A stretch of 64,000 nt of DNA from an uncultured Isosphaeraceae bacterium (GTDB lineage Bacteria > Planctomycetota > Planctomycetia > Isosphaerales > Isosphaeraceae): contig CAWJGW010000064.1 in assembly GCA_963842405.1 (NCBI GenBank), positions 24,781 to 88,780 on the forward strand, read 5' to 3'. A model generated the notes under the pieces. It worked only from the letters and a program-made list of their open reading frames with translations, made no database searches and had not been told where the DNA came from. The first letter of the stretch is position 1. Every line of letters begins with the position of its first letter. A program made the translations under genes and the position numbers. Shown here one piece after another: positions 42,076 to 64,000 of the stretch.

Positions 42076-44320
42076 TCAGGCTTCTTGGATCGCCGATCCA
42101 CCGCCGAACCCCAGGAAGATCGCCTCGATTTCGCCGGCCGACAGCAATGTACCCTCGCGCGGCGAATCCACAATGGTGAACCCGTGGGCGCGGCCGTCGT
42201 ACCAGGGGTCGGCGTTTTCGTAGCCGGCGCGGGGTGGCTTTCGCGTGCCCGTGGCCGGGTCGGACACGCGGTCGTCCTCGCCGTACTCCTGCCGGCGATG
42301 CTCCGATTCGGCCCGGTCGAGGAGGCCCGCCAGCCCCAGGAGCGAGGCCCCGCTGTCGGGCGTCACCGAGAGGATACAACGGCGGGCGTGGCGCGGCGAC
42401 TCCGACACGAACACCGACAGACCCAGAAAGCCCACGCCGTTCGGCGATCGCTCCCGGTCGCTCCGCGCCCAGTCCTTGAGGAAGATGCTGCGCTCCGGGT
42501 CGTCCGGGTTCTGGACGTCGCGGACCAGGAGCGTCTCCACGTCCACCCGTCCGCCGAACTGTCCGGGCAGGCTCAACCGGACAACTCGCGCATGAGTCGC
42601 CGGGTCGGCCAGCTTGCGGTGGTAGCGCTCGACATCGGCCAGCACGTCCCGCCGGTCGCGTTCATCGAAGAGATCCGGGCAGGCGAAGGCGTCCACCGAG
42701 GGCAAGGCCATGCCTGCGCGGAGGCTGTGATCCAGGACATAGGCGATCAAGTTCAGCCCCTGCTGGACGCACTCGCGCCAGTACGGATGATCGGCCTGCC
42801 GACCCAGTCGCGCGTGACGATTGAGCAACTGCATGTAGGCCGCGTAGAGGGCGAACGGATGACTCAGCGTGTGACCGATCGAGCCCTCATCGATCTTGTC
42901 GGCGTACCGGGCCAGGGCTTCAGCGCCTGGAGGGAACTCGCCGGTGGTGAGAAGGACGACCGCGAGATAAGTCGATGCCACCGAGTCGAAGTCAGGCGCC
43001 TCGTGCAACACGATGGTGAACGGGGCAGCCGGGTCCGGGCGGGTCTGGACCGTGGCCGCGACGAGATCGGGGTTCGACAAGACGAGTCGGGCCGTCGAGC
43101 CGTCATAGGCGTGCCGTTGATGGTGGTCGATCACTCCGGGCCGGAGGTCGTTGCCGACGTCCAGGTACAACCGGTCCGGAGCCGGACCGATCGCCGCCGA
43201 CGAGCCGGCTCCTGTGAAGACGAACCGGATCGCATCGCGAGCAACGAGAGGGCGATTTCTCGGGACCGTCGCGGCTCGAGCCCGGTGGGGACGCTGCACC
43301 GGATCGGGACCTCGGTCGCTCTTCAGGTAGGCGTCCAGGTCGAAGGCCAGGTCCTCCATGCTGGGGTAGCGATCCTCGGGTCGGGGTGAGAGGGCCTTCA
43401 GGCAGATGGCATCGAGCGCCGGATCGACCTCGACCCGATGCCTCGAAGGGAGAACCGGCGGTGCGTCGTTCGGATCGGGGATGAATGGCCTGCGCGGGAT
43501 CGGAAAGGGTAGCTGCCGCGCCAGCCGTTCGTACAGGACGCATCCCAATGCGAAGATATCGCTGTGCGGACCGATGTTCTCGGAATCGCCGCGAAGCTGT
43601 TCGGGCGACGTGAATGCCAGCGTCCCGAGGAACTGGCCCGGCTCGGTCAATCGCGGCTCGGGGTCATCCATCAGCAGCGCCAGGCCGAAGTCGATCACGA
43701 CCGGGAGACCTTCGTGAGTCATCACGATATTTGAAGGCTTCAGATCGCGATGGATTACACCTTCACGATGGGCCGCCGCCATCGCGATCGCGACGTCCCG
43801 AATCATCGCGGCGCTCTCCCGGGGCGTGCTGCCCGGATATCGAGAGAGCCGGGTCCCCGGGACGTATCTCATCACGAGGTAGTCGGTACCGTTGACCTGG
43901 CCGACGTCGAGCACCCAGGCCAGGCCCGCATGGACCAGTCGGGCGGCATACCGGGCCTCGCGATAGAACCGCTCCTTTAGCTGAGGGTTATCGATGAGCC
44001 GAGGGCGGGGAACCTTCAAGGCCACCTTGATCTCGAGCTTGAGGTGCCTGGGCGAGGTAGACCGTCCCCATGCCGCCGCCGCCCAGCCACTCCAGGAGCC
44101 GATATCGGCCGAAATCCTGGGGAAAGGGGCCGTCTTTGTCGGGCATCGTCCAGACCGTGCTCGCCGAACCGGGAGGCTCGGCATCGACGGTCGTGCCAGC
44201 AGCCGAATCGTCGGTCAGCGACGACATGACAGGCGCCGGATCGCCGGACCCGGTCGTCAGCTCGGTCGGACCCGACGATCGTCGCTCCGGCGATGGCGAG
44301 GTGGGCTCGAGGCCGTCCAC
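42076..44320 (-). CDS. Ser/Thr protein kinase fused to an uncharacterised C-terminal domain of about 400 aa with DHH-like motifs; one frame disruption near the N-terminus
   Basis: ORF 43988..44320 ([22 protein letters not shown]) joins ORF 42076..44184 ([32 protein letters not shown]). The C-domain carries LYLDVGNDLRPGVIDHHQ and VLHEAPDFDSVAST. The start codon is uncertain (GTG at 44320). Confidence 0.75.
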
Positions 44321-44828
44321 AGAAGGCCCTCCGAATACCCTCGGTCGGGGTTACCTGGTCCGTTCAAAAGTTGTCGGTATCGAGGACAGTTTAGAGGGAA
44401 TGCTTCTTAGACTCAACTGTATTCTCCGCTGGTTTTCAGGGACTTTAGCACCATCACCGGGGAACATGAGGATGACGGCGTTCGGCCTGAGCCTTGAAGT
44501 CAGGGAGAAATACCTCTTGCTTGGAAGGGCGTTGCCATGCTTTGGCTTGGGAACGGAACACGGGGGATGAACTGGTAGAATGCTCTGTTGGAAGCGCGAA
44601 GCTAACCATTGGACGCCGTGGCGGATACGGTGATCCCAAAAATCTGAGATGCGAAACTGGGCCGAAAAGGCTCGCCCAGATAGTGGGGATGCATCTCCCC
44701 GACAAGCGTCTCATCGCGACCGCGACCGCACAGAGGGTAGAGATCGCCCGGAAGGGTCATTAGAATTGTCGTTCATCAGTCTCTCGACATCGAACAACCT
44801 ACCATCGCAAGCTCTGTGGTAATTACCC

Positions 44829-47800
44829 GTGGCACGACCGACCGACATCAACCTGTCCGAGCGAGATATCAGCGGGCTGACGTCTCCCGATGCCCTCATG
44901 TCGTTTTTCAGCCGGCTGCACTACGATACCAACGCCCGCACGCCCCTGACCCCAGAGTCGATCGGCCTCGTGGGGGAGACGGCCGGCGTCGTCAAGAACA
45001 TAGAATTGCTCTCGGAGGACAGCGAGCACCAACTTCGAGTGATCTTCGTTCAGCCGAAATCGCTGACGGCCAAGGTCCGCAACGACCTGGTGCGGGTCCT
45101 GGGCAAGCGCATTCAGGACCACTTGCTGATCCTCTCGCCGGACTTCGAGATGTTGGAGTTCGTCCTGATCGAGAAGCCCAAGAAGAAGCAAAAAGGTCCA
45201 GTGGCATCATCCACCACGCGGCAGCCCGTCGCCAAGACGATCACCATCAACCGGCGCAGGCCCACGCGACTGGACCTGCGGACGCTGCGCCGCTTCACCT
45301 GGACCTGCCAGGATGCGATCGACCAGTTCGTTAAGCTGGTGAGTGCTTTCGATGCCGCGAAGTACACCAGCGAATACTTCCAGAACCGGGGATTATTCGC
45401 GGACTACTTCCTGCGCGAGCGGCTACGGGATGACCCGGAATGGCGGGACAATCCCTCCACAACGTTCGCGAGCGTTGGCAACTTGATCCAGGATGGCTCG
45501 ACTCGGTGGCAAAACGGCGACAAGCTGGCCCTCAGCAATCAGCTTTTCGAGCCGCTTTTCCGGCACCTGGGCTTTCAGGCCGTCCTCAGCCCGCCCGGCA
45601 AGTCCGACTCCAGCCGGCCACCGGACTATCTGCTCCGGGACCGATCGGGCGCGACCCAGTCAGCGGCGTTCGTCTACCCCTGGGACCGCTGGCTCGACGG
45701 ACCGGACATGGACGATGCGGAAACACCCGACGAGAACCCCGGTGCCTGCGTCGTCACGGCCCTCGACAGCGGTCTGGCCGGCTGGATCATCGTCACCAAC
45801 GGGAAAGAATGGCGGCTCTACAGCCGCCACGCCCATGCCCGCGCCACCAACTTCTATGAGGTCGACCTCGTCGAGGTGCTCACGGCCTCAGGCGATACCG
45901 ACCCGAACGAGGCGTTCCGCTACTGGTGGCTGTTCTTCCGCTCGAACGCCTTCGAAGCTCGGGCCGGACAAGTCGAGGCCGGCTGCTGGCTGGACGATAT
46001 CCTCCAGGGGAGCCGGGACTACGCCAAGCAGTTGGGCGAAAAGCTGAAGACTCGCATCTTCCACCACGTCTTCAAGGATCTTGCGGCGGGTTTCCTTGCC
46101 GATCGCGAGGGTCGGCTCCGCCAATCCGCCCATCCGTCCCGACAGGATCTGGACGACACTTTCGAGGCCACACTGACCTTGCTCTACCGCCTCCTATTCC
46201 TTCTCTACGCCGAGAGCCGGGACCTGTTGCCGATCCGCGAGGCGCCCTATCAAGCCGCCAGCCTGAAGGCGATCAAGGAGGAGATCGCTGAGAGGGCCGG
46301 CATCGCCCTCGACGAGGTTTCTCCCCGCCTGGAGCAGGCTTACTCGGCGAGCGCCACGACCCTTTACGACCGCCTCGGCGAGTTGTTCCAGGCGATGGAC
46401 AAGGGTGATCCGGTCCGCAACGTGCCGGTCTACAACGGGGGATTGTTCAACACCGCGCCCGACGATTCGGGCCGGCGGGATCACCGGATCGCCCATTTCC
46501 TAAAGGAGCATAAGGTCCCCGATCGTTATCTCGCCCTGGCCATCGACCGGCTGGTCCGGGACCAGGATGAGCGGACGCTAGGACTCGTCTTCATCGACTA
46601 CAAGTCGCTGGAGGTCCGGCACCTGGGCTCGATCTACGAGGGGCTGCTCGAGTTCAAACTCATCATCGCCGACGAGGACAAGACCACTCAGACCGAGAAG
46701 GGGCAGGAGCGGTATATCTCGCTGTCCCAGGCCAAAGTCAAACGGGGCAGGCAGGCCGAGGTCGCGGTGCGGAAGGGACTAGTCTACCTCTCGAACGACA
46801 AGGCCGAACGGAAGGCGTCTGGCTCGTACTACACGCCCGACCCGGTCGTCGAGTACATCGTGGCCCAGACGGTCGGCCCGGTGCTGGACGAGAAGCTGGA
46901 GGCGCTGCGGGCCGACTTCCGCGCCTTCGGCAAGACCTTCCGGCGCGAGTTGGCGAATTCCCAGCAGGCCCCCGTACCGCAGGTCCGCAAGGGCGAGTGG
47001 ACCCATCGCAATTGGGCGCGAAACCAGGCCCTGTTGAAGCATCCGGGTGTGGTCGAGGCGGTCTTCGACCTCAAGGTGCTCGACCCGGCGATGGGGAGCG
47101 GCCACTTTCTCGTCGAAGCCGTCGATTTCATCACAGACCGGCTGCTTACGTTCCTGGCCGCCTTCCCGATCAATCCGGTCAGCCTTGCGCCTGGAGCGGA
47201 CCCGCGATGAAATCTTGAAATCACTGGCCGATCAGGGCGTGATCGTCGACCCGGCCAAGCTGACGGACATCAACTTGCTCAAGCGGCACGTCCTGAAGCG
47301 ATGCATCTACGGCGTGGATCTGAACCCGATGGCCGTCGAGCTGGCTAAGGTCAGCCTGTGGCTCGACGCCTTCACACTGGGTGCCCCCCTAAACTTTCTC
47401 GATCACCATCTCCGGCCGGGCAATTCGTTGATCGGCCTGTCGGTCCGGGATCTTGAAAATGTGGCCGAAGGTCGATTGCACATCGAGAGAATCCGGGAGC
47501 CGTTAAGACCAGCGATCGAGACGATGCTCCAAGTCAGCCGGTTGACCGACGCCACAGCCGCTGAGGCTAAGGAGTCAGCCGACCTCTATCGGGAAGTGCG
47601 TGAACGGTTATCGGGGGCCGATTTGGCGCTCGATATGCTCGTCGCGGACGATTTCGGGGTCGATGGGGCAAAAGGGCTGGTCGCTGAGGGTGACGACCTC
47701 GATTTCACAGGCCGAGATCGACTTGTCGCGAGCCTGCACGGCGATGCCGAGCGACGTGTCATCGAAAAAACCGAGTCGCTCAGCAGCGACCCTGTCCTCC

Positions 47801-49188
47801 GTTTCTTCCACTGGGATCTCTCCTTCCCCGAGGTCTTCTTCGGGACCTCGGAAGCGGACTTTAACCGGCTTCGGCACAGCCAACGACTAGCGATTACTGG
47901 GAAAGGGTTCGACGCTGTCGTCGGCAATCCGCCTTATGTTCGCATGGAGCTGATCAAGCCGATCAAGCCGTTCCTCAAGCGGCATTACCAGTGCCACGCT
48001 GAGCGAGCCGATCTCTTTATCTACTTCTACGAGCGAGCTGTGCGCCTTCTACGACCCGAGGGTCGGACGGCATTCATCGCCTCCAGTACCTGGACCAAGA
48101 CCAAGGCTGGCGAGCACCTACGCGAGTTCCTCAAAGTAGAGACCACCCTTGAAAGCTTCCTCGACTTCGGGGACCTTCCTGTCTTTGAGGACGCCACAAC
48201 TTACCCCTGCATTCTGGTCGTACGCCGCCAAATGCCCCAACCCAGTCAGGTCGTCGCCAGTGCCGTGGTCAACGACCTTGAGGAGATCGACCTGGTTCGC
48301 TACCTCAAGACTCACACCGTCCCCGTTCCTCAGTCCCAGCTCGAGCTTTCGGGCTGGCACTTTGAGGACCGCCTCGCCATCCGGCTCCGCGACAAGATCC
48401 GCGCCGCGGGTATATCTCTTAAGGAGTATTGCGGCGCGCCGCTCTACGGGATCAAGACAGGCCTGAACGAGGCGTTCGTCATCGACACCCCGACCAGAGA
48501 CCGACTCGTCGCCGAGGATCCTAAGAGCGCTGAGGTTCTCAAGCCCTTCCTCGAAGGCAAGGATCTCAAGACTTGGCATGTCGAGTGGCGCGGACTGTGG
48601 CTTATTTATACCCATCATGGCATTGACATCGACCGCTATCCTGCCATACGCGCTCATCTAGCTACTTATCGATCGCAACTTGAGCGGAGAGCGACGAGTG
48701 ACAACCACGAGTGGTACGAGTTGCAGCAACCTCAATTTGCGTACACTTCTTACTATCAAACACCGAAAATATTCTATCCCCATTTTTCCCGTTGGCCGAA
48801 ATTCTCGTTTGACCCGAAGGGATTCTACGGCAACGACAAGACGTACTGCATCCCTGTCCGGGACAGCTACCTCTTGGGAGTCTTGAATAGTCCTATAATT
48901 TGGTACATTATGAAGGGGATTTGCTCCTTAAAAAAGGGGGGCTATTATGAGATGAGGGTCCAGTACGTTGAGACGGTGCCAATTGCCAAGCCGAACGATG
49001 CTGATCGTCGAGCGATCGCATCGCTGGCAGAGCGTCTATCGGAGGAAAGCATCATGGATCGCCTTGCGATCGAGTCCGAACTATTCGACCGTGTTGCACA
49101 TGTGTACGGACTCACTCACGAGGAGAAGGAGATGCTCGATCTCGAGGTGGGTGCCTCCCTGACCTCTTCGGCGATCGATGAGGACTAG
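44829..49188 (+). CDS. Large RM-type protein: HsdR_N-like N-terminal module + gamma-class N6-adenine DNA methyltransferase + Eco57I/TaqI-type target-recognition domain (type IIG / PglX / DrmMI-like); one frameshift near 47190
   Basis: ORF 44829..47210 (GTG start) has PDYLL...IIVTNGKEWRLYS, LLYRLLFLLYAESRDLLP, SGSYYTPDPVVEYIV and VLDPAMGSGHFLVEAVDF. ORF 47047..49188 has CIYGVDLNPMAVELAKVSLWL, FDAVVGNPPYVR (about 47925..47936), GIKTGLNEAFVID and LKPFLEGKDLKTW. Confidence 0.85.
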
Positions 49189-50229
49189 ACTCGTGTATCT
49201 CAATCGCCTTCGCCTCTACAACGTAAAACCATTGCGGCGTGAGATCCCGGGTGAAGGCGGGAATCCCAGAGCCCGCCCGTCACCGTCTGCTCCTGCAGGG
49301 AGGCAACGGGAGCGGCAAAACGACCGTACTCGAGACCGTGCGCGTCCTTTGGGAGTTCCTAGGCGAATGGATCGACCGGGGACAAGGGAAGCCGCCAACG
49401 GCGAACCAGTCGCGTCATTTTCTTTTCAGATCTGACTTCGCTGCGTTAGAGCTTCGAGGGTTTGCCGGGGATGACCGATCTCTGTGGGTGGGCATTGCCG
49501 GGGCGAACGATTGGTCGGACTTAAAGCGTTCAGAGCCAAACGCGGTCTTTGCTGGGCTCGTACGCTACGGGAAGAAACCTGAGCAAGCCCGCATCGAGCT
49601 CCCGGCAGGGCGTGACTGGAAGACCTTGCGAGACAGCAGTCTTGTTGGTCGGGAACCATTACCGAATATTGTCCACTTTCCTCCCGATAATCGCACCGTG
49701 GTCGGGCCTCCCAAGGGCGGTGCCCGATTAATCGACACGAAGGCGCGTAAACTGGTCGGCGTTCTACAATCCGAAACTGGACCTCGACTCACTCCTCCTC
49801 ACCGTCAAGGCATTGCGGCCCGAGAACTACGATCAGAGTCTTCGCTTGGTTAACCTCGCTATCGGACACCGAAACAAGCGGATCTCTGACTTCGGCGAAG
49901 ATGGACGGCTCTTGGTGGAGGGAGTGACTGAGTATGGGGTTGCCTACCGCCATCCCGTCGAGGAGCTCTCCTCTGGCGAACGGCAGATGTTACTCTTGAT
50001 CGTTTACACGGTCGGGTTCCTCCGGAATGGCGGAATCGTCCTTATTGATGAACCAGATCTACACATACATATATCTATGATACCTCAACTATTGGAAACG
50101 CTAGAACTGGTGGTCCGGGAACGAGGCGGACAATTAATTGTCGCCTCACATTCGCAACTGGTTTGGGACTGGTTTTCCCGAGAGGAAGAGCAAATCGAGT
50201 TGGGGCCTTGGCGGGAGGGCGCGACATGA
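49178..50229 (+). CDS. ABC/AAA_21-type ATPase (AriA/AbiLi/RloA-like), two apparent frameshifts
   Basis: - N-terminus VYLNRLRLYNVKPL in ORF 49178..49435. The start is ATG 49178 or GTG 49194, overlapping or abutting the stop of the MTase gene.
- Walker A LLLQGGNGSGKTTVLE in ORF 49239..49853.
- LSSGERQ and Walker B IVLIDEPDLHIH in ORF 49813..50229. Confidence 0.75.
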
Positions 50230-51077
50230 GTACTCCGCCCAAGCCTGTAATGGATGTTCGGACGATACGCAGCACGAGTAATCGGGCGGTTCTCGTCCTG
50301 GAGGGTAAGGAGGACTCCGAAGTCTACTCGCGATGGCTGAAGAAGCTCATGGGACCTGGTTCCGTTGTCTCCGGTCGGCTCAATCTCGTCGCGGTTGGTG
50401 GAAAGATAAATGTTTTGACTGCGTTGGAGTGGTATCGGGACCACGAAGGCAACCCGGACAACATCTTCGGCATTGTAGATCGTGATGAATGGGATGATGC
50501 TACTATCGCCACAAAGAAAGGGGACCTTTCACAGCTACGAGTCAATACTATGAGACATGGTATCGAGAGTTATTTCTGCGACCCTTCGGAGATCGAACCG
50601 GCGCTTCTAGCTGAGGATACCTCCACCTACGGCCCTCTAATCGCCGCATTCAACACGCAGGCGGCGACGGCTCTCGAGGCTCGCGTCGATCACTGGTGCC
50701 TGTTCACAGTGACTGAAAGGGTCAAGCAACGCATGATCGAGGTGGAATACCCGGGTATCTTTCACGATCTATTCGAGCTACCCGACGATACTGAGATTCT
50801 TAGCCGTCTCCGAACTTGGTCCAGCATCTTGGACTCTGACCGTATCTTCGATGAGTTCACGCGGTTACGGAGTGATGCACGATCTCGCACCTCCTCGGAT
50901 CGATTTCGAGGATGTGTCTGGGCGAAGCCCTTTTTCGAGGGCGTCGTATGCAGTGGAGCAGCCGGATTGCAACAGATGAAGGCCAAGAATACTACGACGT
51001 GGATGATCGATCTCGCTGAGCACTCACCGACAGTCCCCGCCGATATCGAGGCGATCCTCCGAGAGTTGATCCTTTGA
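50226..51077 (+). CDS. DUF4435 / TOPRIM-like protein (AriB/AbiLii/RloB-like)
   Basis: The ATG overlaps the upstream stop (ATGA at 50226..50229). AVLVLEGKEDSEVYSRW...VAVGGKINV...NIFGIVDRDEWDD gives the conserved Glu and DxD of a TOPRIM fold in the DUF4435 arrangement. The reading frame is intact at 283 aa. Confidence 0.7.
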   Translation: MSTPPKPVMDVRTIRSTSNRAVLVLEGKEDSEVYSRWLKKLMGPGSVVSGRLNLVAVGGKINVLTALEWYRDHEGNPDNIFGIVDRDEWDDATIATKKGDLSQLRVNTMRHGIESYFCDPSEIEPALLAEDTSTYGPLIAAFNTQAATALEARVDHWCLFTVTERVKQRMIEVEYPGIFHDLFELPDDTEILSRLRTWSSILDSDRIFDEFTRLRSDARSRTSSDRFRGCVWAKPFFEGVVCSGAAGLQQMKAKNTTTWMIDLAEHSPTVPADIEAILRELIL

Positions 51078-51100
51078 CCCGATGATCCTCGGGGTGGAAC

Positions 51101-54100
51101 GTGAACTTACCCTTCGTCATCGACAACGTGCATCACCGGCTGGCCGACGCTCTCAATCAGCTCCTCACTCAGAGCGCCAAGAGGCCGGTCGACGTCGCGA
51201 CCGCGTATTTCTCCCTGAGCGGATACCGGCTGGTCAAGGGGAATCTGCATCAGGTCGGCGCCTTCCGGCTGCTGATTGGCGGCGACCCCCAGACCGGTGC
51301 CGATGTCGGGCTGAAGCCCCGTTTGCGCGGCGAGCTCGAAGGCGAGCCGTTCACGGCCGAGACCCTCAAGCTGGTTGAAGACCTGATCGCCTTCCTCCAC
51401 GCCGAGAAGGTCCAGGTGCGGCTCTATGACAAGGGATTCCTCCACGCCAAGGCGTACCTCTTCCATCAGGACAAGGTGAGCCCCCTCAATCCGGCCGACC
51501 GCCTGCGGCCGTTCGCCGCCATCGTCGGGTCGAGCAACTTCACCGGGCCGGGCCTCATCAGCAATCGAGAGCTGAACCTGGTCCATCGGGTCATCCTGCC
51601 GGACGAAGACCCGCGCGATCCCGAAGCGGCCAGCCGGTCCGTGTACCTCGCCCAACTCCCCGGCCCCGAAACGGTCCTTGACCCGTCCCGCGTCGATGTG
51701 CCCGACGACGCCCGCCGGGTCATCAAGAGCGAGGTCGGGGCCAGGGCGATCACCGACTTGATGCGTTGGTACGAGGAACAGTGGGCCGAGTCGGTCGATT
51801 TCAAGGCCGAGTTGATCGAACTGCTTGATGCCAGCAAGTTCGGCACCAAGGAGTACACGCCGTATCAGGTCTATACCAAGGCCCTCTTCGAATACTTCAA
51901 GGAGGAGTTGGGTGCCGACTCGCCCGAGTTGGGCCGCAGCGCGGTGGACCTCGCTGAGTTCCAGGAGGATGCCGTCAAGAAGGCCCGCCGCATCCTCGCC
52001 CGCTACGATGGCGTCCTGATCGCCGATTCGGTAGGGCTGGGCAAGACCTGGATCGGCAAGAGGCTGCTCGAAGACTTCGCCTACCATCGCCGACAAAAGG
52101 CCGTGGTCGTCTGCGCGGCCTCGTTGCGGGCCATGTGGGAGCGGGAGCTGGCCTCGGCCACGATCGCCGCCCGGATTGTCGGCTTGGAGGAGTTGGGCCG
52201 GACCGAGTTCGACCCGAACCCCTTCGGCGATGCCGACGTGATCATGGTCAACGAGAGCCACAACCTCCGCAATGATAAGGCCAACCGTTACCTGGCGCTG
52301 GATTCGATTATCCAGAGCCATGGCGGCCGGGGCCGGGACGGAAGCCGCAAGAAGGTCATCCTCCTGTCGGCCACGCCGATCAACAACGACTTGAACGACC
52401 TCCTCAGCCAGGTCCGCCTGTTCACCCAGGGCCAGCCCGACTACTTCCGCGATGCGGGCATCGGCGACCTCACGGCCTACTTCCGCCGCGCCCGAAAGGC
52501 CGTGAACCAAAAGGACACCGCGGCCGGGGTAGTCCTGTTCAACCTGCTCGAAGAGGTGATGGTCCGCAACACCCGGCCCTACATCCGGGCCGCCTATCCC
52601 AACGCGACGATCAACGGGCGGCCGGTCGCCTTCCCCGATCGCCGGCTTCATACCGTCTCCTACGACCTCGGGGCCACGTGCGGCGGCCTGTACGACGAGA
52701 TCGTGGCCGCCATCGAGAACCTCTCGCTCGCCCCGTACAAGCTGGAAGCCTACAAGAAGAAGACGGCGATCCGGGACGACACGGAACACAAGTGGGAAGA
52801 AGGGCGCGAGATGGCCCTGGTGGGCATCTTCAAGACCCGGTTCCTCAAGCGGTTGGAGTCGAGCATCGCGGCGTTCCGCCTCAGCCTCGGCGCGCGCTGA
52901 CCTTCGAAGAGACGTATCTCGATTACCTGCTCGACGGCAACGTCGTCTCATCGAAAGACTTCCAGAAGGCCGTGCGATTCCTCGCGCGCGACGAGGAAGA
53001 TGACATCGCCGCCGGGAGTTTGGCCGAGGAGATCGATGCCGTCGCCGAGGCCAGGGAGTACATCGAGAGCCTGCCGCGCCGTGGATCTCAATCAATACGA
53101 GCTGCGGAAGTTGAGGCACGACGTCGAGGCGGATGTCGCGGCGCTTCGGACGCTGCACGATCGCACCGAGGCACTCGCGGTCCATGACGGCAAGCTTGCC
53201 CGTCTCAAGGAGCTCCTGGCCGGCGACTTGAGGGGCAAGAAGGTGCTGGTCTTCAGCACGTTCAAGGATACAGCCCGCTACCTCCATCGGCGGCTCACCG
53301 ACGAGTCGAGCGCGCCCTGGCTCGAAGCGGCGGGCAACCCGACGATTCGCCGGATCGACAGCGGCAATCACCCCTTCGAGCGGCCCAAGATCCTCGGCCT
53401 GTTCGCCCCGCAGGCCAATGGCCGGCTGGCGGCCTCCGGCGACGAGATCGATATCCTGATCAGCACGGACGTGCTCTCGGAGGGCCAGAACCTACAAGAC
53501 TGCGGGATCATCATCAATTACGACCTGACCTGGAACCCGATTCGGCTAGTCCAGCGCAACGGGCGCATTGATCGCATCGGCAGTCCCCACGCCGAGATCG
53601 GCATCTACAACCTGTTCCCCGAGGCCGAACTCGAGGCGCTCCTGCACCTGATCGAGAGGTTGACGAGCCGGATCTCGACTCTCGACGACATGGGGCTGCT
53701 CGACTCCAGCGTGCTCGGCGAGGTCGTCCACCCGCGGACCTACAACACCTTGCGCCGCATCCGCGACGAGGACGGAACCGTGCTGGATGAGGAAGAGGCA
53801 CGGGCCGAGCTGGCCGGCCCCGAGGTGCTGCTCAAACAGTTGAAGGGCAGCTTCTCAATCGCGGCGGCTCGGATGCGCTCACGTCGCTGCCCACGGCATC
53901 CACTCGGGCCTGCGCCGCCAGAACTGCCACGGGATGTTCTTCTACTTCCAGGCCCCGCGCACGGACGGCCTGGGTCGGCGCCACTTCTGGCGGTACATCG
54001 ACGGCCACACCGAACAGATCGTTGAGAACCGCTACGAGATCGCCCAGATGATCGCCTGCCTACCCGACGAGCCCCGCTACCTCGGCGATCATGACGTGTT

Positions 54101-54482
54101 CGCTCTCCAGGAGACGGTGATCGCGCACATCCTGAAAGCCGAGCGGGAGGTGGAAGCCCGGGCCGCCGCACCGACCGCCGTCGACCCGATCCAGCAGACC
54201 GTGGCCGAGGAGCTGAAGGATGCCATCCGCCGCAAGACGGTGGACCGAGATCTCGCCAAGAGCGGTATCCGCTTCCTCGGTCAGCCGATGGGCAAATCCC
54301 TCCACCTCAAACTGCGTGCGGCGTTCGCAGCGTGGGACGAGTCGCATGACGATGTGGCCCTTCTGGCGGAGATCGCGGCACTGGCACAGCAGTTCCAGAA
54401 GCACCGGCCGGCAACAGCCCAGGTCAAGCACCTTCGGCGTGAGGAGCTGGAGCTCATCTGCTTCGAGTACGTGACGGGCTGA
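51101..54482 (+). CDS. PLD-family (single HKD) nuclease domain fused to SNF2-family helicase; about 3-4 frame disruptions
   Basis: - GTG at 51101 follows GGGGTGGA.
- PLD domain: VDVATAYFSLSGY, GFLHAKAYLF, AIVGSSNFTGPG.
- Helicase: LIADSVGLGKTWIG, VIMVNESHNLRN, ILLSATPINN in ORF 51101..52900.
- C-lobe in ORF 53000..54025 (KVLVFSTFKDTARYL, LISTDVLSEGQNLQD, NYDLTWNPIRLVQRNGRIDRIGS).
- Tail in ORF 53934..54482. Confidence 0.85.
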
Positions 54483-54629: not shown

Positions 54630-57472
54630 CTACTTCGGGCCCTCCGCCGATTGCTTCTCCATCTCCTTGAGCAGGTCCTGGAAGTCGGTCCGGCTGCGGA
54701 TCGCGTCGAGGTCGGTGTCGGACGCGAGGACCTCCTGCTTGAGGAAGCCGCCCCGGATGGCTCGGCGAAGGAGCTGTATGGCCCGGTCGCCGTACTTCTC
54801 GCGGCGGAACCGATCGCCCTTGCTCACCTTATCGGCGTCGAGGGTGCCCTGGGTCCCGTTCTTGGCGCCCATCAAGGGGATGCAGAGCGCTATGTTGCTC
54901 GCCAGGTTGTAGCTGTTGCGCGGGTCGAGCTCGGGCAGGCTCTCGTAGAGGTCGACGGCGCGCTGGAACGATCGCAGGGCCTCGACCGGCTCGCCCGACT
55001 GCTGGTGTACCCGGCCGATGTTGTTGTTCGCCTTGGCCAGGTCGATGCGCGAGTAGACGTCCTTGGGATGCTCGGAGACCAGCCGCTCGAGCAGGACCCG
55101 GGCTTTCTGGGCGAAGGCCAGCGACTCGGCCGGCTCGAGCCGACGCCGGTGGAGATCGCTGAGCAGGTTGTACGTGCTGGCCACGCTGCCCTGGTAGTTG
55201 AGGACGCCGGGATACTGCCGGTCGAGCCGCTCCAGGACCTCAATGGCCCGGCGGAGGCTCTTCAAGGCCGAGTCGAGCTTGCCGGCCATCTGCTGGACAA
55301 CGTTCAAGTCGCCCAGTTCCATCGCCAGGAGATAAGCCTGATCGGCCAGCTCGGGGCGCTCGCGGGTGACTTCCTCGCGAAGCTCGACGGCTGCCTGATA
55401 GGACTCCAGCGCCGGCTCCGGCTCATCGGGCTGCGACATCAGGGCCTGACCCAGGAGACCATGGGTCCTGGCCATGGAGATGCGTGGTTCGAGGGCTTTG
55501 GGATCTTGGGCGGCCCGTTGCGCCTCGATCGCCAGCACTTTCTGGAGGGTCTCGATCGACCTGAGGGGCTGACCTTGCTCCAACTGGATCTGTCCGATGT
55601 TCTGAAGGACCAGGCTCAGCTCGTGACGTTGCGAGACCGACGAGGGATCGGCGGCGATCAAGGGCTCGAGCAGGCCCTCGGCCCGTCGGAAGGTGCGGAG
55701 GGCCTCGTCGCGACGGCCCTCCAGCCGCATGAGCAGCACGCCCAGATCGTTGAGGGTGCGAGCCAGCGCTTCTGGATAAGCCGGGTTGCCGGGCTGGGCC
55801 GCGACCAGGCCTTCCCAGAGCGCGACGGCCTGCTGGAACTGGGGGACGGCCCGGGCCGGCGAGCCGATCTCCCCGGTGATCCTGGCGGTGCGAGCGCGGG
55901 CAGCGGCCAGATCGGCGCAGAGCGCGGGGTCGCCGTCGCGACGATCGAGGAATTCCTCGTAGAACCGCTGCGCATCCTGGAGCAGGGTCTTGCGGAGCGG
56001 ATCGAGCCCCGGCTGGTTGAGCCGGCGATCCTCGCTGACGCGCGTGAAGAACTGGTCGACCGCCCGGCGCGCCTGTCGCGAAGACTCCTCGGCGCGATCG
56101 CGATCGCGGCGGGCCAGGACCAGGCCCGTCGTGGTGCCGGCGATGCCCGCCACCATCGCCAGGAGCAGGACGATTCCGGCGGCGACCGCCGCCGGATGCC
56201 GCCGCGCGAACTTCGCCGCTCGATAGCCCGGCGAGTCGCGGTGCGCCCGCACCGGCAGGCCCTCCAGGTAGCGATGCAGGTCGTCGGCGAACTGCTCGGC
56301 CGAGGCATACCGACGCACCGGCTCTTTGCGCAACGCCATCAGCACGATCGCGTCCAGATCGCCGGCCAGGATCCGCTTGAGCCCGACCGGGGAAACGCCC
56401 GGGCCGCGGCGATCTCCTCGGGGGTGGGGGCCGGCGGCGGCGCGGGCAGTGAAACAGGCGACGGCTCGGATGGCGGCCCCGACGGCATCGGCGCGGACGA
56501 GCCCGGCGCGGAACCGGCCGTCGCACGACCGCCGCGCTGGGTCTTTCGGGCACTTGCTCGCAGATGGCCTGGAAGACCTCCGATGTCGTCCGGTCCTTGA
56601 GCCGATAGGGCCGAAGGCCCGTCAGGAGCTGGTAGAGCACGACCCCCAGCGCGTAGACGTCGCTGGCCGTCGTGACCGGCTCCCCATTGATCTGCTCGGG
56701 GCTGGCGTACTCCGGGGTCAAGACCCGCTCGCCGCGATCGGGATGGATCAGCCTGGCGATCCCGAAGTCGATGAGCTTGGGTACTCCGTCCGAGGTGACC
56801 AGGATATTGCTCGGCTCCAGGTCGCGGTGGATCACCGCGTGCTGGTGCGGCGAAATGGACCGCGCCACAGACCTTGTCGAAGAGGCCCAGCCGCGCGGGG
56901 AGATCCAGCCGGCGGCCGTCGCAATACGCGTCGATCCGCTGGCCGTCAACGTACTCCATCACGAGGAATGGCCGGCCGTCCTCGGTCGTGGCGGCGTCGA
57001 GCAACCCGACGATGTTCGGGTGCTTGCCCAGCGCGGCCTGGACGTGGATCTCGTTGTGGAACCGCCGCACGATCGCGTCGCTATCCATCCCGCGCTGGAT
57101 CAGCTTGACGGCGACCTCTTGCCGGAAGTCCTCGACCCGGGCGGCTCGATAGACGGTCCCCATGCCCCCGCCGCCGATCCGCGCCAAGAGCTCATAAGGG
57201 CCGATCCGGCGCCCGACCATCGGGTCGGCCTCGCCCGGTGCGATCGGCGCCGACTCCGAGGAATCATCCCCCTCGGACCCAAAAGTCATGGTCCGGTCGT
57301 CGTCGGCCGGAGGGCTCGCCGCGGCCGTGACGGCCTCTAGGGCAATCGACTCGACCAGATCGAAGGCCGCCGCGGTGGTCGTTTCCGTCCCGGCGGTGCC
57401 GGTGTCGGCCGCGACGGTCGCGGCCACCGTCGGGTCATCATCCGGGTTGACCCGGGAAGGATCGGCATTCAT
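54630..57472 (-). CDS. Ser/Thr kinase - TM helix - TPR repeat protein, frame-disrupted
   Basis: ORF 56339..57472 has [20 protein letters not shown] and AVKLI. The frame of ORF 55423..56949 has [18 protein letters not shown] and EYASPEQ. ORF 54630..56345 has a TM helix ([19 protein letters not shown]) followed by about 10 TPR-like repeats. Confidence 0.8.
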
Positions 57473-61950: not shown

Positions 61951-61987
61951 GGGTACCGCCCAGATTGCTGTAAAAATATCCTTTAAG
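61951..61987 (+). repeat. Terminal inverted repeat of a Tn3-family transposon
   Basis: GGGTACCGCCCAGATTGCTGTAAAAATATCCTTTAAG is 37 nt. It begins GGG(G)TA.CG.CAG and ends TAAG, like the roughly 38-bp IRs of Tn3/Tn21/Tn1546-type elements. It lies 100 nt outside the tnpA stop. Confidence 0.6.
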
Positions 61988-62086
61988 CTCGTTGCCGAGG
62001 CGATATGATTGCACGCAGGCGTGCAAAAGTCGCCCCTGTCTCACAACACATTAAATAGTAAATATTATTAGTGATTATACTGTGTT

Positions 62087-64000
62087 TCAGCGGACCTGGG
62101 CGCGGTCCAAAACGTACTGGCCGTACAGGATCACGTTGTCCCACTCGATGGGGCTCACGTGCTCCAGGAGCGCGACGTCGATCTTTGCTTCGCTCTCCGG
62201 GCTGGCACCATCGCACGACCCGCGAAATCTCCTTCGCCTGCCAGTAGATCACGCAGGCCAGAATGAGCGTGAGGCAGCTACACGAGTTCATTTGCTCGTG
62301 CAATTCGCGGGCGTTGATCCGGCCCCGCCGGCCGTAATACACGTCCCGGGCCAGCGCATGCAGTTGCTCGACCTTCAGCAGGCCCCGACGGATGCGCGAC
62401 CGCAACGGCGGCTCGGACAGGTAGCTCAGCAGGAACTCGGTCTTGAAGATCCGGCCCAGGTCGCGATTGGCCCGGTAGAAGCGGTTCTTGGCGGTGCATG
62501 AGGCAAGCCGTTTGAGCGCCACCGAGGCGGTCGTGTGGCCGCTCTCCAGCGACGCATAGAACTGCCCCATCCGGTCCCACTGCTCGGCGATGACCTGGGG
62601 GTCGATCGTGCGGTCGGCCCGGCTCACCAGACCGGCCAGCGGCCCGTAGTCGCGCTTGGCGTCGAGGCGATAGAGGCGTTGCTTCCCGAGGCTGCGGATG
62701 CGAGGGCAGAACCGCCTCCCCAGCATCGCGAACGCGGCGAAGTTGATCTCCGTGTAGCCGTGGGTGTCGGTGTAGTGCTCCTCCAGCTCCAGGTCGCTCT
62801 CGTTGTAGCAGAGGCCGTCGAGCACGAACGCCGAGTCCCGGTCGGTGCATTCGATCGGCATGCTGTAGAACGGCGCGTAGTTGTCGGCGACGAAGGAATA
62901 GAACTCCAGGGCGAAGTCGCTGAACCGGGTGCTGTAGGTCTGTTGCAGGACCTTGCGGGGCATGGCGAACCGCTGCCCGTCGCTGGCCGAGGTCCGGCCT
63001 TCGCCCCAGTGGAGCGTGGTGTCGAGGCGGGAGATGGCGTGCACCAGCGCCGCCAGGGCGGCGCGCTGCGCCTCCTCGGTCATCTGCCAGTCGCTGACCC
63101 GCTTGAGCTGTTTGTAGGTGACGCCCTGGGTGATCTGGGCCATCGTGTGCAGGCCGATGTTGCAGCCGTGCGCCAGCACGACGGCCAGGAGCGTGCACAC
63201 GTCTTCCGCGTCACGCCCCCCGCGCTGAGCGGGGGCACGAAGTGGTCGGTGAAACGCAGGTCGTTATCGACCTCGATGAGCAGGTCGGGGAGGCGGATCG
63301 TCCGCATGTGTTTGGCCAGCCATTTCTTCAGGTCGCCCAGCCGTGTTTGCGCCGCGGCGTCCAACGTCTCGGCGGCGTCCTTGGACAGGTGCCAGCCGTC
63401 CTCCTCCACCGTGGCGTAGGTGTTGTCGGGCGCCGTCTTGAGGAAGAGGTCGTAGGCCGTGTTCAGCCGCTTCGTCAGATGGTCGCGGACGTTCTTGGGA
63501 TCGGCGGGCAGGCCGGACCGTTGGAAGAAGGACTTCCGGAGCGGCTCCCAGCGCTCCTTCGGGAGGAAATAGTCCGCGAACCGGCCGAACCGCTTGCCGT
63601 GCTTGACCGAGAGGTTGCCTGACCGTAGATCGTCCTGAAGCTTCAGCAGCAAGGCGCACTCCCAGGCTTTCCGATCCGGCTTGCCGTCGGTCACGACCAG
63701 GGGCAAGAGCCGCTTGGGGATGAAGTCCGTGGGGGCGTCCTCGGGGAGCTTCCGCTTCAGGTCGGCGTTCATCTCCTTGAGAACGCGAATGGCTTCCAGG
63801 CAGGGGATCTCGTCGTCGCCGGCGTCCGGGATGAACTCCAGGGCGCGAAGCAAGACCGGCGAGAACTGCCGCAGGTGGCTGAACCGCCGGACGAGGCCGT
63901 GGAACACGTCGCTCTTCTTGCCGGTGACCCACTCGTCCAACCCCGCCACCTGGGCCTCCAAGGTGTCTCGGGGCACGGCGGCGAACAGCCGCGGTCGCAG
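62087..64000 (-). CDS. tnpA: Tn3-family transposase (DDE_Tnp_Tn3), partial (N-terminus outside the window), frame-disrupted
   Basis: ORF 63080..63976 has ..FIPKRLLPLVV..WECALLLKLQDDLRSGNL. ORF 61983..63200 has HGCNIGLHTMAQ, TSASDGQRF, HYTDTHGYTEINFAAFAMLGRRFCPRIR and LILACVIYWQAKEI. The true C-terminus ..IEWDNVILYGQYVLDRAQVR is in another frame, with stop at 62087..62089. Confidence 0.85.

What the first reader, a model, noticed from the sequence alone, without database searches (positions are those of the whole stretch)
44829..54482. Four-gene RM-like operon: nuclease-like/m6A-MTase giant + ABC ATPase + DUF4435/TOPRIM + PLD-SNF2 helicase, not fitting a defined system
The four genes are A (44829..49188), B (49178/49194..50229), C (50226..51077) and D (51101..54482).
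- They are co-directional, with overlaps or gaps of at most 23 nt.
- About 500 bp of lower-GC non-coding DNA precedes them and a convergent gene follows, so this reads as one transcription unit.
- The cassette looks compositionally different from its flanks (AT-rich patches, e.g. 48700..49000 and 50040..50110).
- A supplies a gamma-class N6-adenine MTase with an Eco57I/TaqI-type TRD.
- D supplies a translocase (SNF2) fused to a PLD nuclease.
- B and C form an ATPase-TOPRIM pair.

Within the window there is no HsdS/HsdR, Res, PglZ/BrxC/BrxL or DrmA/DrmB (DUF1998) partner. The cassette therefore does not meet the definitions of type I/III RM, BREX or DISARM. It still shares parts with them: a PglX/DrmMI-like MTase, and a D protein that looks like a DrmC+DrmD fusion.

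This is my best candidate in the window for an undescribed composite defence system.
Basis: partly seen in the sequence, partly recalled or inferred. Interest (0 to 1): 0.8.

Follow-up and report, generated by a model that had tools for sequence, protein, structure and literature searches.

The report
Restriction-like gene pair hosting PARIS-like module
The four genes are two separable phage-defence modules nested together: a widespread but unnamed methylase plus nuclease-helicase pair, which carries a small PARIS-like ATPase/nuclease pair in a slot that holds different defence genes in other genomes.

Summary
The four co-directional genes are at the stated coordinates, and the domain calls hold. 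They are not one four-part system.

- **Core pair.** A (~1,452 aa, PglX/DrmMI/type IIG-like m6A methylase) and D (~1,130 aa, HKD nuclease fused to an SNF2 ATPase) form a conserved two-gene core. In 50 of 50 related loci with enough upstream DNA, A lies upstream of D on the same strand.
- **Variable slot.** The gap between A and D runs from 18 bp to 7 kb. It holds varied cargo: HEC-01, DarG-like, a second type IIG enzyme, PDC-M03, Mrr, and many unknown ORFs.
- **Cargo here.** B and C are an ABC ATPase plus a TOPRIM protein. Their closest solved structures are PARIS AriA and AriB. The pair also occurs alone, and distant relatives sit between pglX and pglZ of BREX-1.
- **No other partner.** No DrmA/DrmB, DUF499, BrxC or PglZ partner recurs nearby.
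- **Frameshifts.** The cassette has at least 7 frameshifts, but flanking kinase genes are broken at the same density. This points to assembly error, not decay of this locus.

Verdict: an unnamed variant of known HKD-SNF2 restriction-like systems, showing the known "embedded defence" pattern. Interest is moderate.

The parts
44185..44828 (.). Upstream non-coding region of about 640 bp with lower GC, lying between a divergent kinase gene and A. It is the presumed promoter region.
   Evidence: Composition and coding-state segmentation. One sigma-70-like match lies at 44738-44766, but matches are at chance level.
44829..49188 (+). Gene A, about 1,452 aa after repair of a 1-nt insertion at about 47181. 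Its parts are: a conserved N-terminal domain; a domain with a PD-(D/E)xK-like fold (PDY at 45618, TNGxxWRLY at 45795); a helical spacer; a gamma-class N6-adenine methylase (motif I at 47082-47108, NPPY at 47923-47937); and a TaqI_C-type TRD from about 48541.
   Evidence: Pfam and PADLOC. PDB sequence hits to CamA, BseCI, TaqI and PglX. The AF2 model has pLDDT 85, and Foldseek matches the type IIL enzyme DrdV and Hjc. Alignment to intact homologs fixes the frameshift.
47436..51100 (+). Hypervariable, lower-GC segment. It covers the C-terminal part of A (about 580 aa: catalytic C-part plus TRD) and the embedded genes B and C. It is flanked by two conserved arms: the 5' 2.6 kb of A, and D.
   Evidence: DNA similarity to 12 related loci stops at about 47435 and resumes at about 51110. 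GC3 drops from 0.85 to 0.55-0.7. Protein conservation of A is lost after NPPY.
49178..50229 (+). Gene B, about 346 aa after repair of two frameshifts. It is an AriA-like ABC ATPase with Walker A at 49299-49322, signature LSSGERQ at 49966-49986 and Walker B at 50038-50058.
   Evidence: AAA_21 at 5e-19. PADLOC AriA. The best PDB sequence hit is AriA 8ux9_B at 5.7e-7. Full-length alignment to intact homologs.
50226..51077 (+). Gene C, 283 aa and intact. It is an AriB-like TOPRIM effector, with the conserved Glu at 50295-50315 and the DxD at 50475-50495.
   Evidence: PADLOC AriB at 2.4e-8. Invariant E26 and D85-R-D87. The AF2 model has pLDDT 94.8. The best PDB folds are AriB 8v46_D and 8ux9_A (E 1.5e-4, TM 0.5), followed by the OLD C-terminal region.
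51101..54482 (+). Gene D, about 1,130 aa after repair of four frameshifts. It has an N-terminal HKD (PLD) nuclease domain (HxK at 51440-51463, GSSN at 51527-51544), an SNF2 ATPase (motif I at 52034, DExH box reading NESH at 52247-52264, motif VI at 53552-53581) and a conserved C-terminal domain of unknown function.
   Evidence: Pfam PLDc_2, SNF2 and Helicase_C. PADLOC 'HKD+Snf2' C3a139 and DrmD. There is 100% coverage at 70-86% identity to intact proteins of about 1,130 aa. The D384N change is unique among 112 homologs.
54630..57472 (-). Convergent downstream Ser/Thr kinase-TPR gene. It is not part of the system. It serves as a control because it is also split over three frames.
   Evidence: Pkinase profile positions 1-89 and 96-205 fall in different frames. 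Supported by the frame plot and translations.

Best explanation
The region holds two nested, separable defence modules that are probably transcribed together.

**Host module, A plus D.**
- Shown: A and D form a two-gene core found mainly in Planctomycetota and Chloroflexota, with distant relatives on cyanobacterial and Deinococcus plasmids.
- Inferred: it is an ATP-dependent restriction-modification-like system. A reads a DNA motif through its TaqI-type TRD and marks host DNA with m6A. On unmodified foreign DNA, A recruits or licenses D. D translocates with its SNF2 motor and cuts with its HKD nuclease.
- Inferred: the PD-(D/E)xK-like domain of A has no recognisable (D/E)xK, so it is probably non-catalytic.

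**Embedded module, B plus C.**
- Shown: it is a small, rare clade of PARIS-like ABC ATPase plus TOPRIM nuclease.
- Inferred: it is a second-line or abortive module. B holds C inactive until a phage cue releases it, for example an anti-restriction protein that targets the methylase-based system.

**Exchange and integrity.**
- Shown: the C-terminal half of A (TRD) plus the cargo form a low-GC variable segment between two conserved arms.
- Inferred: homologous recombination swaps this segment as a unit.
- Shown: the cassette carries at least 7 frameshifts.
- Inferred: they are most likely assembly indel errors.
For: **A and D are linked.**
- A lies upstream of D on the same strand in 50 of 50 loci with enough upstream DNA. 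The gap ranges from 18 to 7,054 bp. Seven loci have a gap under 250 bp and 34 have more than 1 kb.
- A and D identities co-vary across loci (Spearman 0.85, n=33).
- Among 97 flanking ORFs from 31 loci, no PADLOC family matched more than 2.
- The same layout occurs on RefSeq plasmids of Microcystis and Deinococcus. Their methylase is homologous to A.

**The slot carries diverse cargo.**
- Family summaries of the inserts.
- HEC-01A/B at 2.5e-152 and 5e-80, PDC-M03A, and a second type IIG enzyme.
- Mrr plus DarT.

**B and C are PARIS-like.** Supported. B directly precedes C in 48 of the 54 metagenome loci; in the other six (mostly where C lies at or near a contig end) no B was detected.

**B and C are separable from A and D.**
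- They occur alone in L138 and L140.
- Related pairs sit inside BREX-1 between PglX and PglZ in 8 loci.

**Catalytic motifs.** Those of A, B and C are intact. All motifs of D are intact except D384N.

**The variable segment.** Supported.

**Frameshifts are window-wide.**
- One kinase domain is split between frames.
- A kinase-WD40-TPR gene is broken into at least 5 ORFs.
- D shows no excess of singleton substitutions: 11, against 3-28 in its homologs.

**Literature precedent.**
- HKD-SNF2 proteins as RM restriction components (PMC3417536, PMC10853773).
- Type IIG genes next to PLD+SNF genes (PMC9881135).
Against: - No functional data exist. Methylation, restriction, A-D contact and the B-C trigger are all inferred.
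- The four-gene order recurs on at least 8 independent contigs. The C family is tiny, with 259 representatives among 1.84 billion proteins. Some functional coupling of B-C to the methylase is therefore not excluded.
- The Walker-B change D384N in D is unique. If real, it would inactivate the motor.
- The N-terminal domain of A has a nuclease fold, so A might cut DNA itself.
- B is 346 aa, against 464 aa for AriA. C fails the Pfam DUF4435 threshold.
Confidence: 0.7

Rival explanations
1. One integrated four-component system. B and C would be obligate subunits of a new composite defence machine together with A and D.
For: - The same A-B-C-D order occurs on the closest relative's contig and in L008 and L003. 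Partial versions occur in L085, L096-L098 and L108.
- Contig-length matches link P0242, P0243, P0249, P0259, P0263 and P0274 to contigs that carry A or D.
- The genes overlap or are tightly spaced.
- The C family is rare.
Against: - A-D occurs without B-C in 48 of the 50 loci. Seven loci have no insert, and many have unrelated cargo.
- B-C stands alone in L138 and L140. Homologous pairs sit inside BREX-1.
- L003 carries two B-C pairs in one slot, which suggests cargo rather than fixed stoichiometry.
Confidence: 0.1
2. A decayed locus. The frameshifts and D384N would be real, and the cassette would be a pseudogenised remnant.
For: - There are at least 7 frameshifts in 9.65 kb.
- D384N is unique among the DESH boxes.
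- The deposited gene call is the 793-aa fragment.
- Clearly decayed relatives exist: L083 and L139.
Against: - Flanking ordinary genes are broken at a similar density. There are at least 4 breaks in 4.6 kb and 2 in 2.8 kb, against 7 in 9.65 kb.
- D has no excess of substitutions at invariant columns.
- The indels are single bases at short runs.
- Many related long-read MAG loci show similar breaks.
Confidence: 0.15
3. A is a self-sufficient type IIG/IIL restriction-modification enzyme, and D is an independent single-gene nuclease-helicase defence. The two would merely sit side by side in a defence island.
For: - The N-terminal region of A has a nuclease fold like that of DrdV.
- A has a type IIG-like domain order.
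- A solitary SNF2-nuclease, HmaA, can defend alone (PMC11232893).
Against: - Co-occurrence and co-orientation are near-universal across several phyla, with gaps as small as 18-74 bp.
- A and D identities co-vary.
- No canonical (D/E)xK motif could be found among the residues conserved in A.
Confidence: 0.12

Closest known systems
Hma / type-2 'BREX-related' (DUF499-centred) systems
   Same: - The effector has an N-terminal HKD nuclease fused to a Swi2/Snf2 helicase.
- It is paired with an N6-adenine methylase.
- The locus is a hotspot in which other defence genes are embedded, including AAA_21 ATPase pairs and PARIS (PMC12839542, 10.1101/2024.01.29.577857, PMC11232893).
   Different: - No DUF499 ATPase (HmaC) or DUF3780 gene was found in any context examined.
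- The methylase here is a giant of 1,450-1,600 aa of the PglX/DrmMI/Eco57I type, not the DUF1156-type HmaB.
- D matches the PADLOC HmaA model only over the helicase C domain.
DISARM class 1 (DrmMI, DrmD, DrmA, DrmB, DrmC)
   Same: - A matches DrmMI models over most of its length.
- D combines DrmD-like SNF2 and DrmC-like PLD functions.
   Different: - No DrmA or DrmB (DUF1998) was found near any of 31 loci.
- D scores 158 bits against the NCBIfam DrmD cutoff of 610.
- PLD and SNF2 are fused in one protein here.
PARIS (AriA/AriB)
   Same: - It is a two-gene ABC ATPase plus TOPRIM pair.
- AriA and AriB are the closest solved structures to B and C.
- Catalytic residues are conserved.
   Different: - The pair is very divergent, with 14-15% identity in the fold match.
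- B is 346 aa against 464 aa for AriA.
- C is below the Pfam DUF4435 threshold.
- C belongs to a tiny separate clade.
- The trigger and target have not been tested.
Type IIG/IIL restriction-modification enzymes (MmeI, DrdV) and BREX PglX
   Same: - The domain order is the same: nuclease-fold domain, helical spacer, gamma-class m6A methylase, C-terminal TRD.
   Different: - A has about 200 extra N-terminal residues.
- No recognisable (D/E)xK motif is present.
- A is always paired with D.
- It scores 100 bits against the PglX cutoff of 500.
- No PglZ or BrxC is present.
[quoted passage not shown]
   Same: - This is the general kind: an HKD endonuclease fused to an SF2/SNF2 motor that acts with a DNA-modification component (PMC3417536, PMC10853773).
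- Type IIG genes next to PLD+SNF genes have been noted in passing (PMC9881135).
   Different: - This specific two-gene family and its internal cargo slot were not found named or analysed in the papers searched.

Membership tests
PARIS | AriA: an ABC ATPase with Walker A, signature and Walker B motifs | tested here: met
   AAA_21 at 5e-19. Motifs were located. AriA 8ux9_B is the best PDB sequence hit at 5.7e-7. However, B is 346 aa against 464 aa for AriA.
PARIS | AriB: a DUF4435/TOPRIM protein encoded directly downstream | tested here: inconclusive
   The fold match to AriB has E=1.5e-4 and TM 0.5. PADLOC AriB scores 2.4e-8. The E and DxD residues are invariant. However, Pfam DUF4435 scores E=0.076, below its cutoff, and the profile against PDB AriB scores E=0.02.
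PARIS | Activation by anti-restriction proteins, with tRNA cleavage by released AriB | not testable with these tools
   This needs experiments. The feature is recalled from the PARIS literature.
DISARM class 1 | DrmA helicase and DrmB (DUF1998) core genes | tested here: not met
   No recurrent PADLOC family was found among 97 flanking ORFs of 31 A-D loci. None appears in the precomputed Pfam contexts or in the window flanks.
DISARM class 1 | DrmMI methylase and DrmD SNF2 helicase at family level | tested here: inconclusive
   The PADLOC DrmMI and DrmD models hit. The NCBIfam DrmD score is 158 bits against a cutoff of 610.
Hma / type-2 BR system | DUF499 AAA+ ATPase (HmaC) | tested here: not met
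   It is absent from flanks and inserts and from gene contexts with precomputed Pfam.
Hma / type-2 BR system | HKD endonuclease placed N-terminal to a Swi2/Snf2 helicase | tested here: met
   PLDc_2 lies at residues 54-162, followed by SNF2 and Helicase_C. HxK is conserved in 114 of 120 homologs.
Hma / type-2 BR system | Standalone DUF3780 gene | tested here: inconclusive
   It is not listed in any Pfam context or insert summary, but it was not searched for specifically.
BREX | PglZ and BrxC/PglY alongside PglX | tested here: not met
   Neither occurs near A-D loci. A scores 100 bits against the BREX-1 PglX cutoff of 500. True BREX-1 loci were recognised easily by the same tool.
Type IIG/IIL RM enzyme | A single polypeptide with an active PD-(D/E)xK nuclease, a gamma-class methylase and a TRD, which acts alone | tested here: inconclusive
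   The methylase and TRD are met. The nuclease fold resembles DrdV and Hjc. No (D/E)xK motif was identified. A is always partnered with D.
Type III RM (Mod/Res) | A beta-class Mod methylase plus a Res subunit with a C-terminal PD-(D/E)xK nuclease | tested here: not met
   A is gamma-class, with motif I before NPPY and the TRD at the C-terminus. The nuclease of D is an N-terminal HKD.

The most novel reading that the evidence does not exclude
The A-D pair is a distinct, still unnamed two-gene restriction-like defence family. Its internal slot between the methylase gene and the nuclease-helicase gene would be a general 'embedding' hotspot comparable to that of Hma and BREX.

The B-C clade would be a dedicated guard of PglX-like methylases. 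It sits directly downstream of the methylase gene both here and in BREX-1. It would fire when a phage anti-restriction factor attacks the methylase complex, so the two modules would be functionally coupled rather than merely co-located.
Probability: 0.3. Interest if true: 0.6.

Novelty: new variant of a known kind. Interest (0 to 1): 0.42.

Why it matters
If confirmed, three things follow.

- **A minimal new member of the ATP-dependent, methylation-based defences.** The system would need only two genes. It is common in Planctomycetota and Chloroflexota, which are phyla with little experimental defence work.
- **A new anchor for "guilt-by-embedding" discovery.** About two thirds of the loci carry inserts. 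Many inserted ORFs match no known defence family: the 415-, 418-, 487- and 1,403-aa proteins.
- **A test case for co-exchange of specificity and cargo.** It could show whether TRD specificity and embedded second-line modules are swapped together between conserved arms.

Cultured carriers of distant relatives offer experimental handles: Microcystis aeruginosa NIES-2481 p1 and Deinococcus radiophilus pRadio5.

Tried and rejected
1. **A conserved or programmed frameshift, or a natural split of A near residues 735-830.** Many protein-search hits end there, and L082 is split 809+658 aa. However, the breakpoints differ by locus. In the unbiased genome loci the breaks lie at about residues 340, 531, 629, 685, 911, 934 and 988. 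I treat the cluster as an ascertainment effect of querying with residues 1-721.
2. **Decay specific to this locus.** Rejected, because the flanks are broken at the same density.
3. **Shufflon or inversion, or target-site duplications, around the TRD and cargo.** Only short chance-level repeats were found.
4. **Promoter and terminator scan.** Counts equal the shuffled expectation.
5. **Source record.** The exact look-up of the A fragment failed and no accession was returned. All that is known is that it is a 90,571-bp NCBI/ENA contig.
6. **tRNA integration site.** There are no tRNA genes in the window.
7. **NCBIfam naming.** No model reaches its cutoff for A, B, C or D.
8. **Conservation of the upstream non-coding region.** It shows no similarity to any related locus.

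Full report
**1. Observation**

The window is high-GC (0.63-0.70). The ORF list is fragmented across 44.8-54.5 kb. A GC3 frame plot shows one continuous + strand coding signal that changes frame repeatedly. Three-frame translations and alignment to intact homologs give four genes:

| Gene | Coordinates | Length | Frame breaks |
|---|---|---|---|
| A | 44829-49188 | about 1,452 aa | one, a 1-nt insertion at about 47181 |
| B | 49178-50229 | about 346 aa | two |
| C | 50226-51077 | 283 aa | none |
| D | 51101-54482 | about 1,130 aa | four |

About 640 bp of lower-GC non-coding DNA lies upstream, and a convergent gene lies downstream.

Domain calls hold.
- A has Eco57I and TaqI_C, with a sub-threshold MmeI_hel match.
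- B has AAA_21.
- D has PLDc_2, SNF2 and Helicase_C.
- PADLOC models give REase_MTase_IIG and DrmMI for A, AriA for B, AriB for C, and 'HKD+Snf2' and DrmD for D.
- No NCBIfam model reaches its cutoff.

**2. A and D form a conserved two-gene core**

Repaired D aligns end to end with thousands of intact proteins of about 1,130 aa at 70-86% identity. A scan of one genome per species with a D alignment returned 80 loci. Most come from Planctomycetota and Chloroflexota. A few come from Nitrospirota, Binatia, Thermoanaerobaculia and deltaproteobacteria.

- In all 50 loci with enough upstream DNA, an A homolog lies upstream of D on the same strand.
- The distance from the A stop to the D start runs from 18, 31, 44, 64 and 74 bp up to about 7 kb. 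The median is 1.9 kb. Seven loci have under 250 bp and 34 have more than 1 kb.
- A and D identities co-vary (Spearman 0.85).
- Among 97 large flanking ORFs from 31 loci, no PADLOC family recurs more than twice. No DrmA/DrmB, BrxC, PglZ or HmaC partner is therefore present.
- More distant versions (about 33% D identity) have the same layout on RefSeq plasmids:
  - Deinococcus radiophilus pRadio5 carries methylase, DUF262, two hypothetical genes, then helicase.
  - Microcystis aeruginosa NIES-2481 p1 carries methylase, a hypothetical gene, nucleotidyltransferase plus SLATT, then helicase.
  - The genes are annotated only as 'N-6 DNA methylase' and 'helicase-related protein'. Their methylase is homologous to A.

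**3. The slot between A and D carries variable cargo**

The 105 insert ORFs of at least 100 aa fall into many unrelated families.

- Pfam and PADLOC summaries show HD domains, AAA_21/AAA_15 ATPases, DUF4276, M78 peptidase plus HTH, DUF4411, AbiEii, HepT/MNT, DarG-like proteins and integrases.
- Explicit examples are HEC-01A/B in L027, PDC-M03A in L007, a second type IIG enzyme in L047, and Mrr plus DarT in L082. Several large proteins have no match.
- B-C lies between A and D in only one of the 50 A-D loci (L008); L062 carries a B-C pair elsewhere. It also fills the slot in the window, in L003 (two pairs) and on the contig of the closest D relative. Several short metagenome contigs show partial versions.

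**4. What B and C are**

- B has all ABC ATPase motifs. Its best PDB sequence hit is AriA.
- C belongs to a tiny family. The word-indexed search found 39 hits. The exhaustive search found 259 representatives at E<=1e-3 among 1.84 billion proteins.
- C has an invariant Glu and an invariant DxD.
- The AF2 model of C is confident (pLDDT 94.8). Its only significant PDB matches are AriB in the two PARIS complexes. The OLD TOPRIM region is the next match.
- B directly precedes C in 48 of the 54 loci found with a C profile; in the other six (mostly where C lies at or near a contig end) no B was detected.
- The pair occurs without A or D (L138, L140).
- Relatives at 25-27% identity sit between PglX and PglZ in eight BREX-1 loci.

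B-C is therefore a mobile PARIS-like module that tends to lodge just downstream of PglX-like methylase genes. It is not a fixed subunit of A-D.

**5. Anatomy of A**

- Conservation among homologs is strong from residue 1 to the NPPY motif at about residue 1036. It is lost in the remaining catalytic part and the TRD.
- By sequence, the C-terminal half resembles CamA, BseCI, TaqI and PglX.
- The N-terminal 793 aa fold with pLDDT 85. Foldseek gives weak but consistent matches to the type IIL enzyme DrdV, including its isolated nuclease domain, and to Hjc resolvase.
- The conserved residues include PD-Y and TNGxxWRLY, but no (D/E)xK could be placed. I therefore infer that this domain is non-catalytic and that the HKD of D is the nuclease.

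**6. The variable segment**

DNA similarity to a dozen loci ends at about 47435 and resumes at about 51110. This coincides with the fall in GC3. The C-terminal half of A plus the cargo therefore behave as one exchangeable segment between two conserved arms. No inversion repeats or duplications mark its ends.

**7. Frameshifts**

The deposited record contains them: P0121 is the 793-aa A fragment on a 90,571-bp contig. They are not specific to the cassette.

- The downstream kinase domain is split between frames, with Pkinase positions 1-89 and 96-205 in different frames.
- A kinase-WD40-TPR gene at 28.7-33.4 kb is broken into at least five overlapping ORFs.
- A Tn3 transposase also changes frame.
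- Densities are about 0.8 per kb in the flanks and 0.73 per kb in the cassette.
- The indels are single bases at short runs.
- D has no more singleton substitutions than its intact relatives.
- Related long-read MAG loci show similar breaks.

I conclude that assembly error is the most likely cause. The unique D384N change in the DESH box remains a caveat.

**8. Comparison with known systems**

- HKD-SNF2 fusions have long been described as restriction components of ATP-dependent RM-like systems (PMC3417536, PMC10853773).
- Type IIG genes adjacent to PLD+SNF genes have been noted (PMC9881135).
- The nearest named systems are Hma / type-2 BR, which has an HKD-SNF2 helicase, an N6 methylase, DUF499 and DUF3780 (PMC12839542), and DISARM class 1. 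Both fail on defining genes here.
[quoted passage not shown] It includes ABC-ATPase/TOPRIM pairs and PARIS (10.1101/2024.01.29.577857, PMC11232893).

The finding is thus an unnamed variant of a known kind that shows a known organisational principle. No paper naming this two-gene family was found.

**9. Verdict**

- The interpretation as a single novel four-gene system is not supported.
- The composite reading has a confidence of about 0.7.
- The mechanisms of both modules are inferred.

Noticed in passing
window 28748-33376 (-), 54630-57472 (-), 61983-64000 (-): Ordinary flanking genes are split over several reading frames: a kinase-WD40-TPR gene, a kinase-TPR gene and a Tn3 transposase. The whole window therefore carries frequent single-base indels, most likely assembly errors.
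   Followed up: yes
window 52250-52252 (D residue 384); window about 56700 (-): The DExH box of D reads NESH instead of DESH, which is unique among 112 homologs. The catalytic loop of the neighbouring kinase reads HRDLEPSN, with E in place of the usual K. These are two catalytic-site substitutions of unknown reality.
   Followed up: partly
window 34562-35983 (+) and 61983-63200 (-): An ISL3/Mutator-like transposase and a Tn3-family DDE transposase lie on either side of the region. No repeats link them to the cassette.
   Followed up: partly
L003 264-7618: A Gemmatales MAG carries two divergent B-C pairs, sharing 40-52% (B) and 36-49% (C) identity with the window's B and C, in the same slot between A and D.
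   Followed up: partly
L106, L110, L115, L116, L119, L120, L122, L127 (e.g. L106 8889-10810): Eight metagenomic BREX type 1 loci (BrxC-PglX-[pair]-PglZ-BrxL) carry a B-C-like ATPase/TOPRIM pair between pglX and pglZ.
   Followed up: yes
L141 (Deinococcus radiophilus pRadio5) and L142 (Microcystis aeruginosa NIES-2481 p1): Plasmids of cultured strains have the same layout of methylase, cargo and HKD/SNF2. The cargo is a DUF262 (GmrSD-like) gene in one and a nucleotidyltransferase+SLATT pair in the other. In Microcystis, a MotA/TolQ-family gene follows the helicase.
   Followed up: partly
L139 5090-10706: B-C is followed by a heavily frameshifted D. It is preceded by phage-like genes (Terminase_2) instead of A. 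This could be a prophage insertion or a rearranged locus.
   Followed up: no
L082 10001-14418; protein hits P0122-P0235: Many A homologs in public gene calls are truncated near residues 735-830. In L082, A is split 809+658 aa by a frameshift 20 codons from the window's break. This was not reproduced in the genome-locus set, so it is probably a search artefact.
   Followed up: yes
L083 10001-16652: This is a clearly decayed relative. The A fragment is followed by short ORFs, and only a 158-aa PLDc_2 remnant of D survives.
   Followed up: no
L013 7722-8966, L071 2670-3923, L028 6109-7569, L034 2937-7145: Large proteins (415, 418, 487 and 1,403 aa) are embedded between A and D and match no PADLOC model. 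They are candidate new defence genes by guilt-by-embedding.
   Followed up: no
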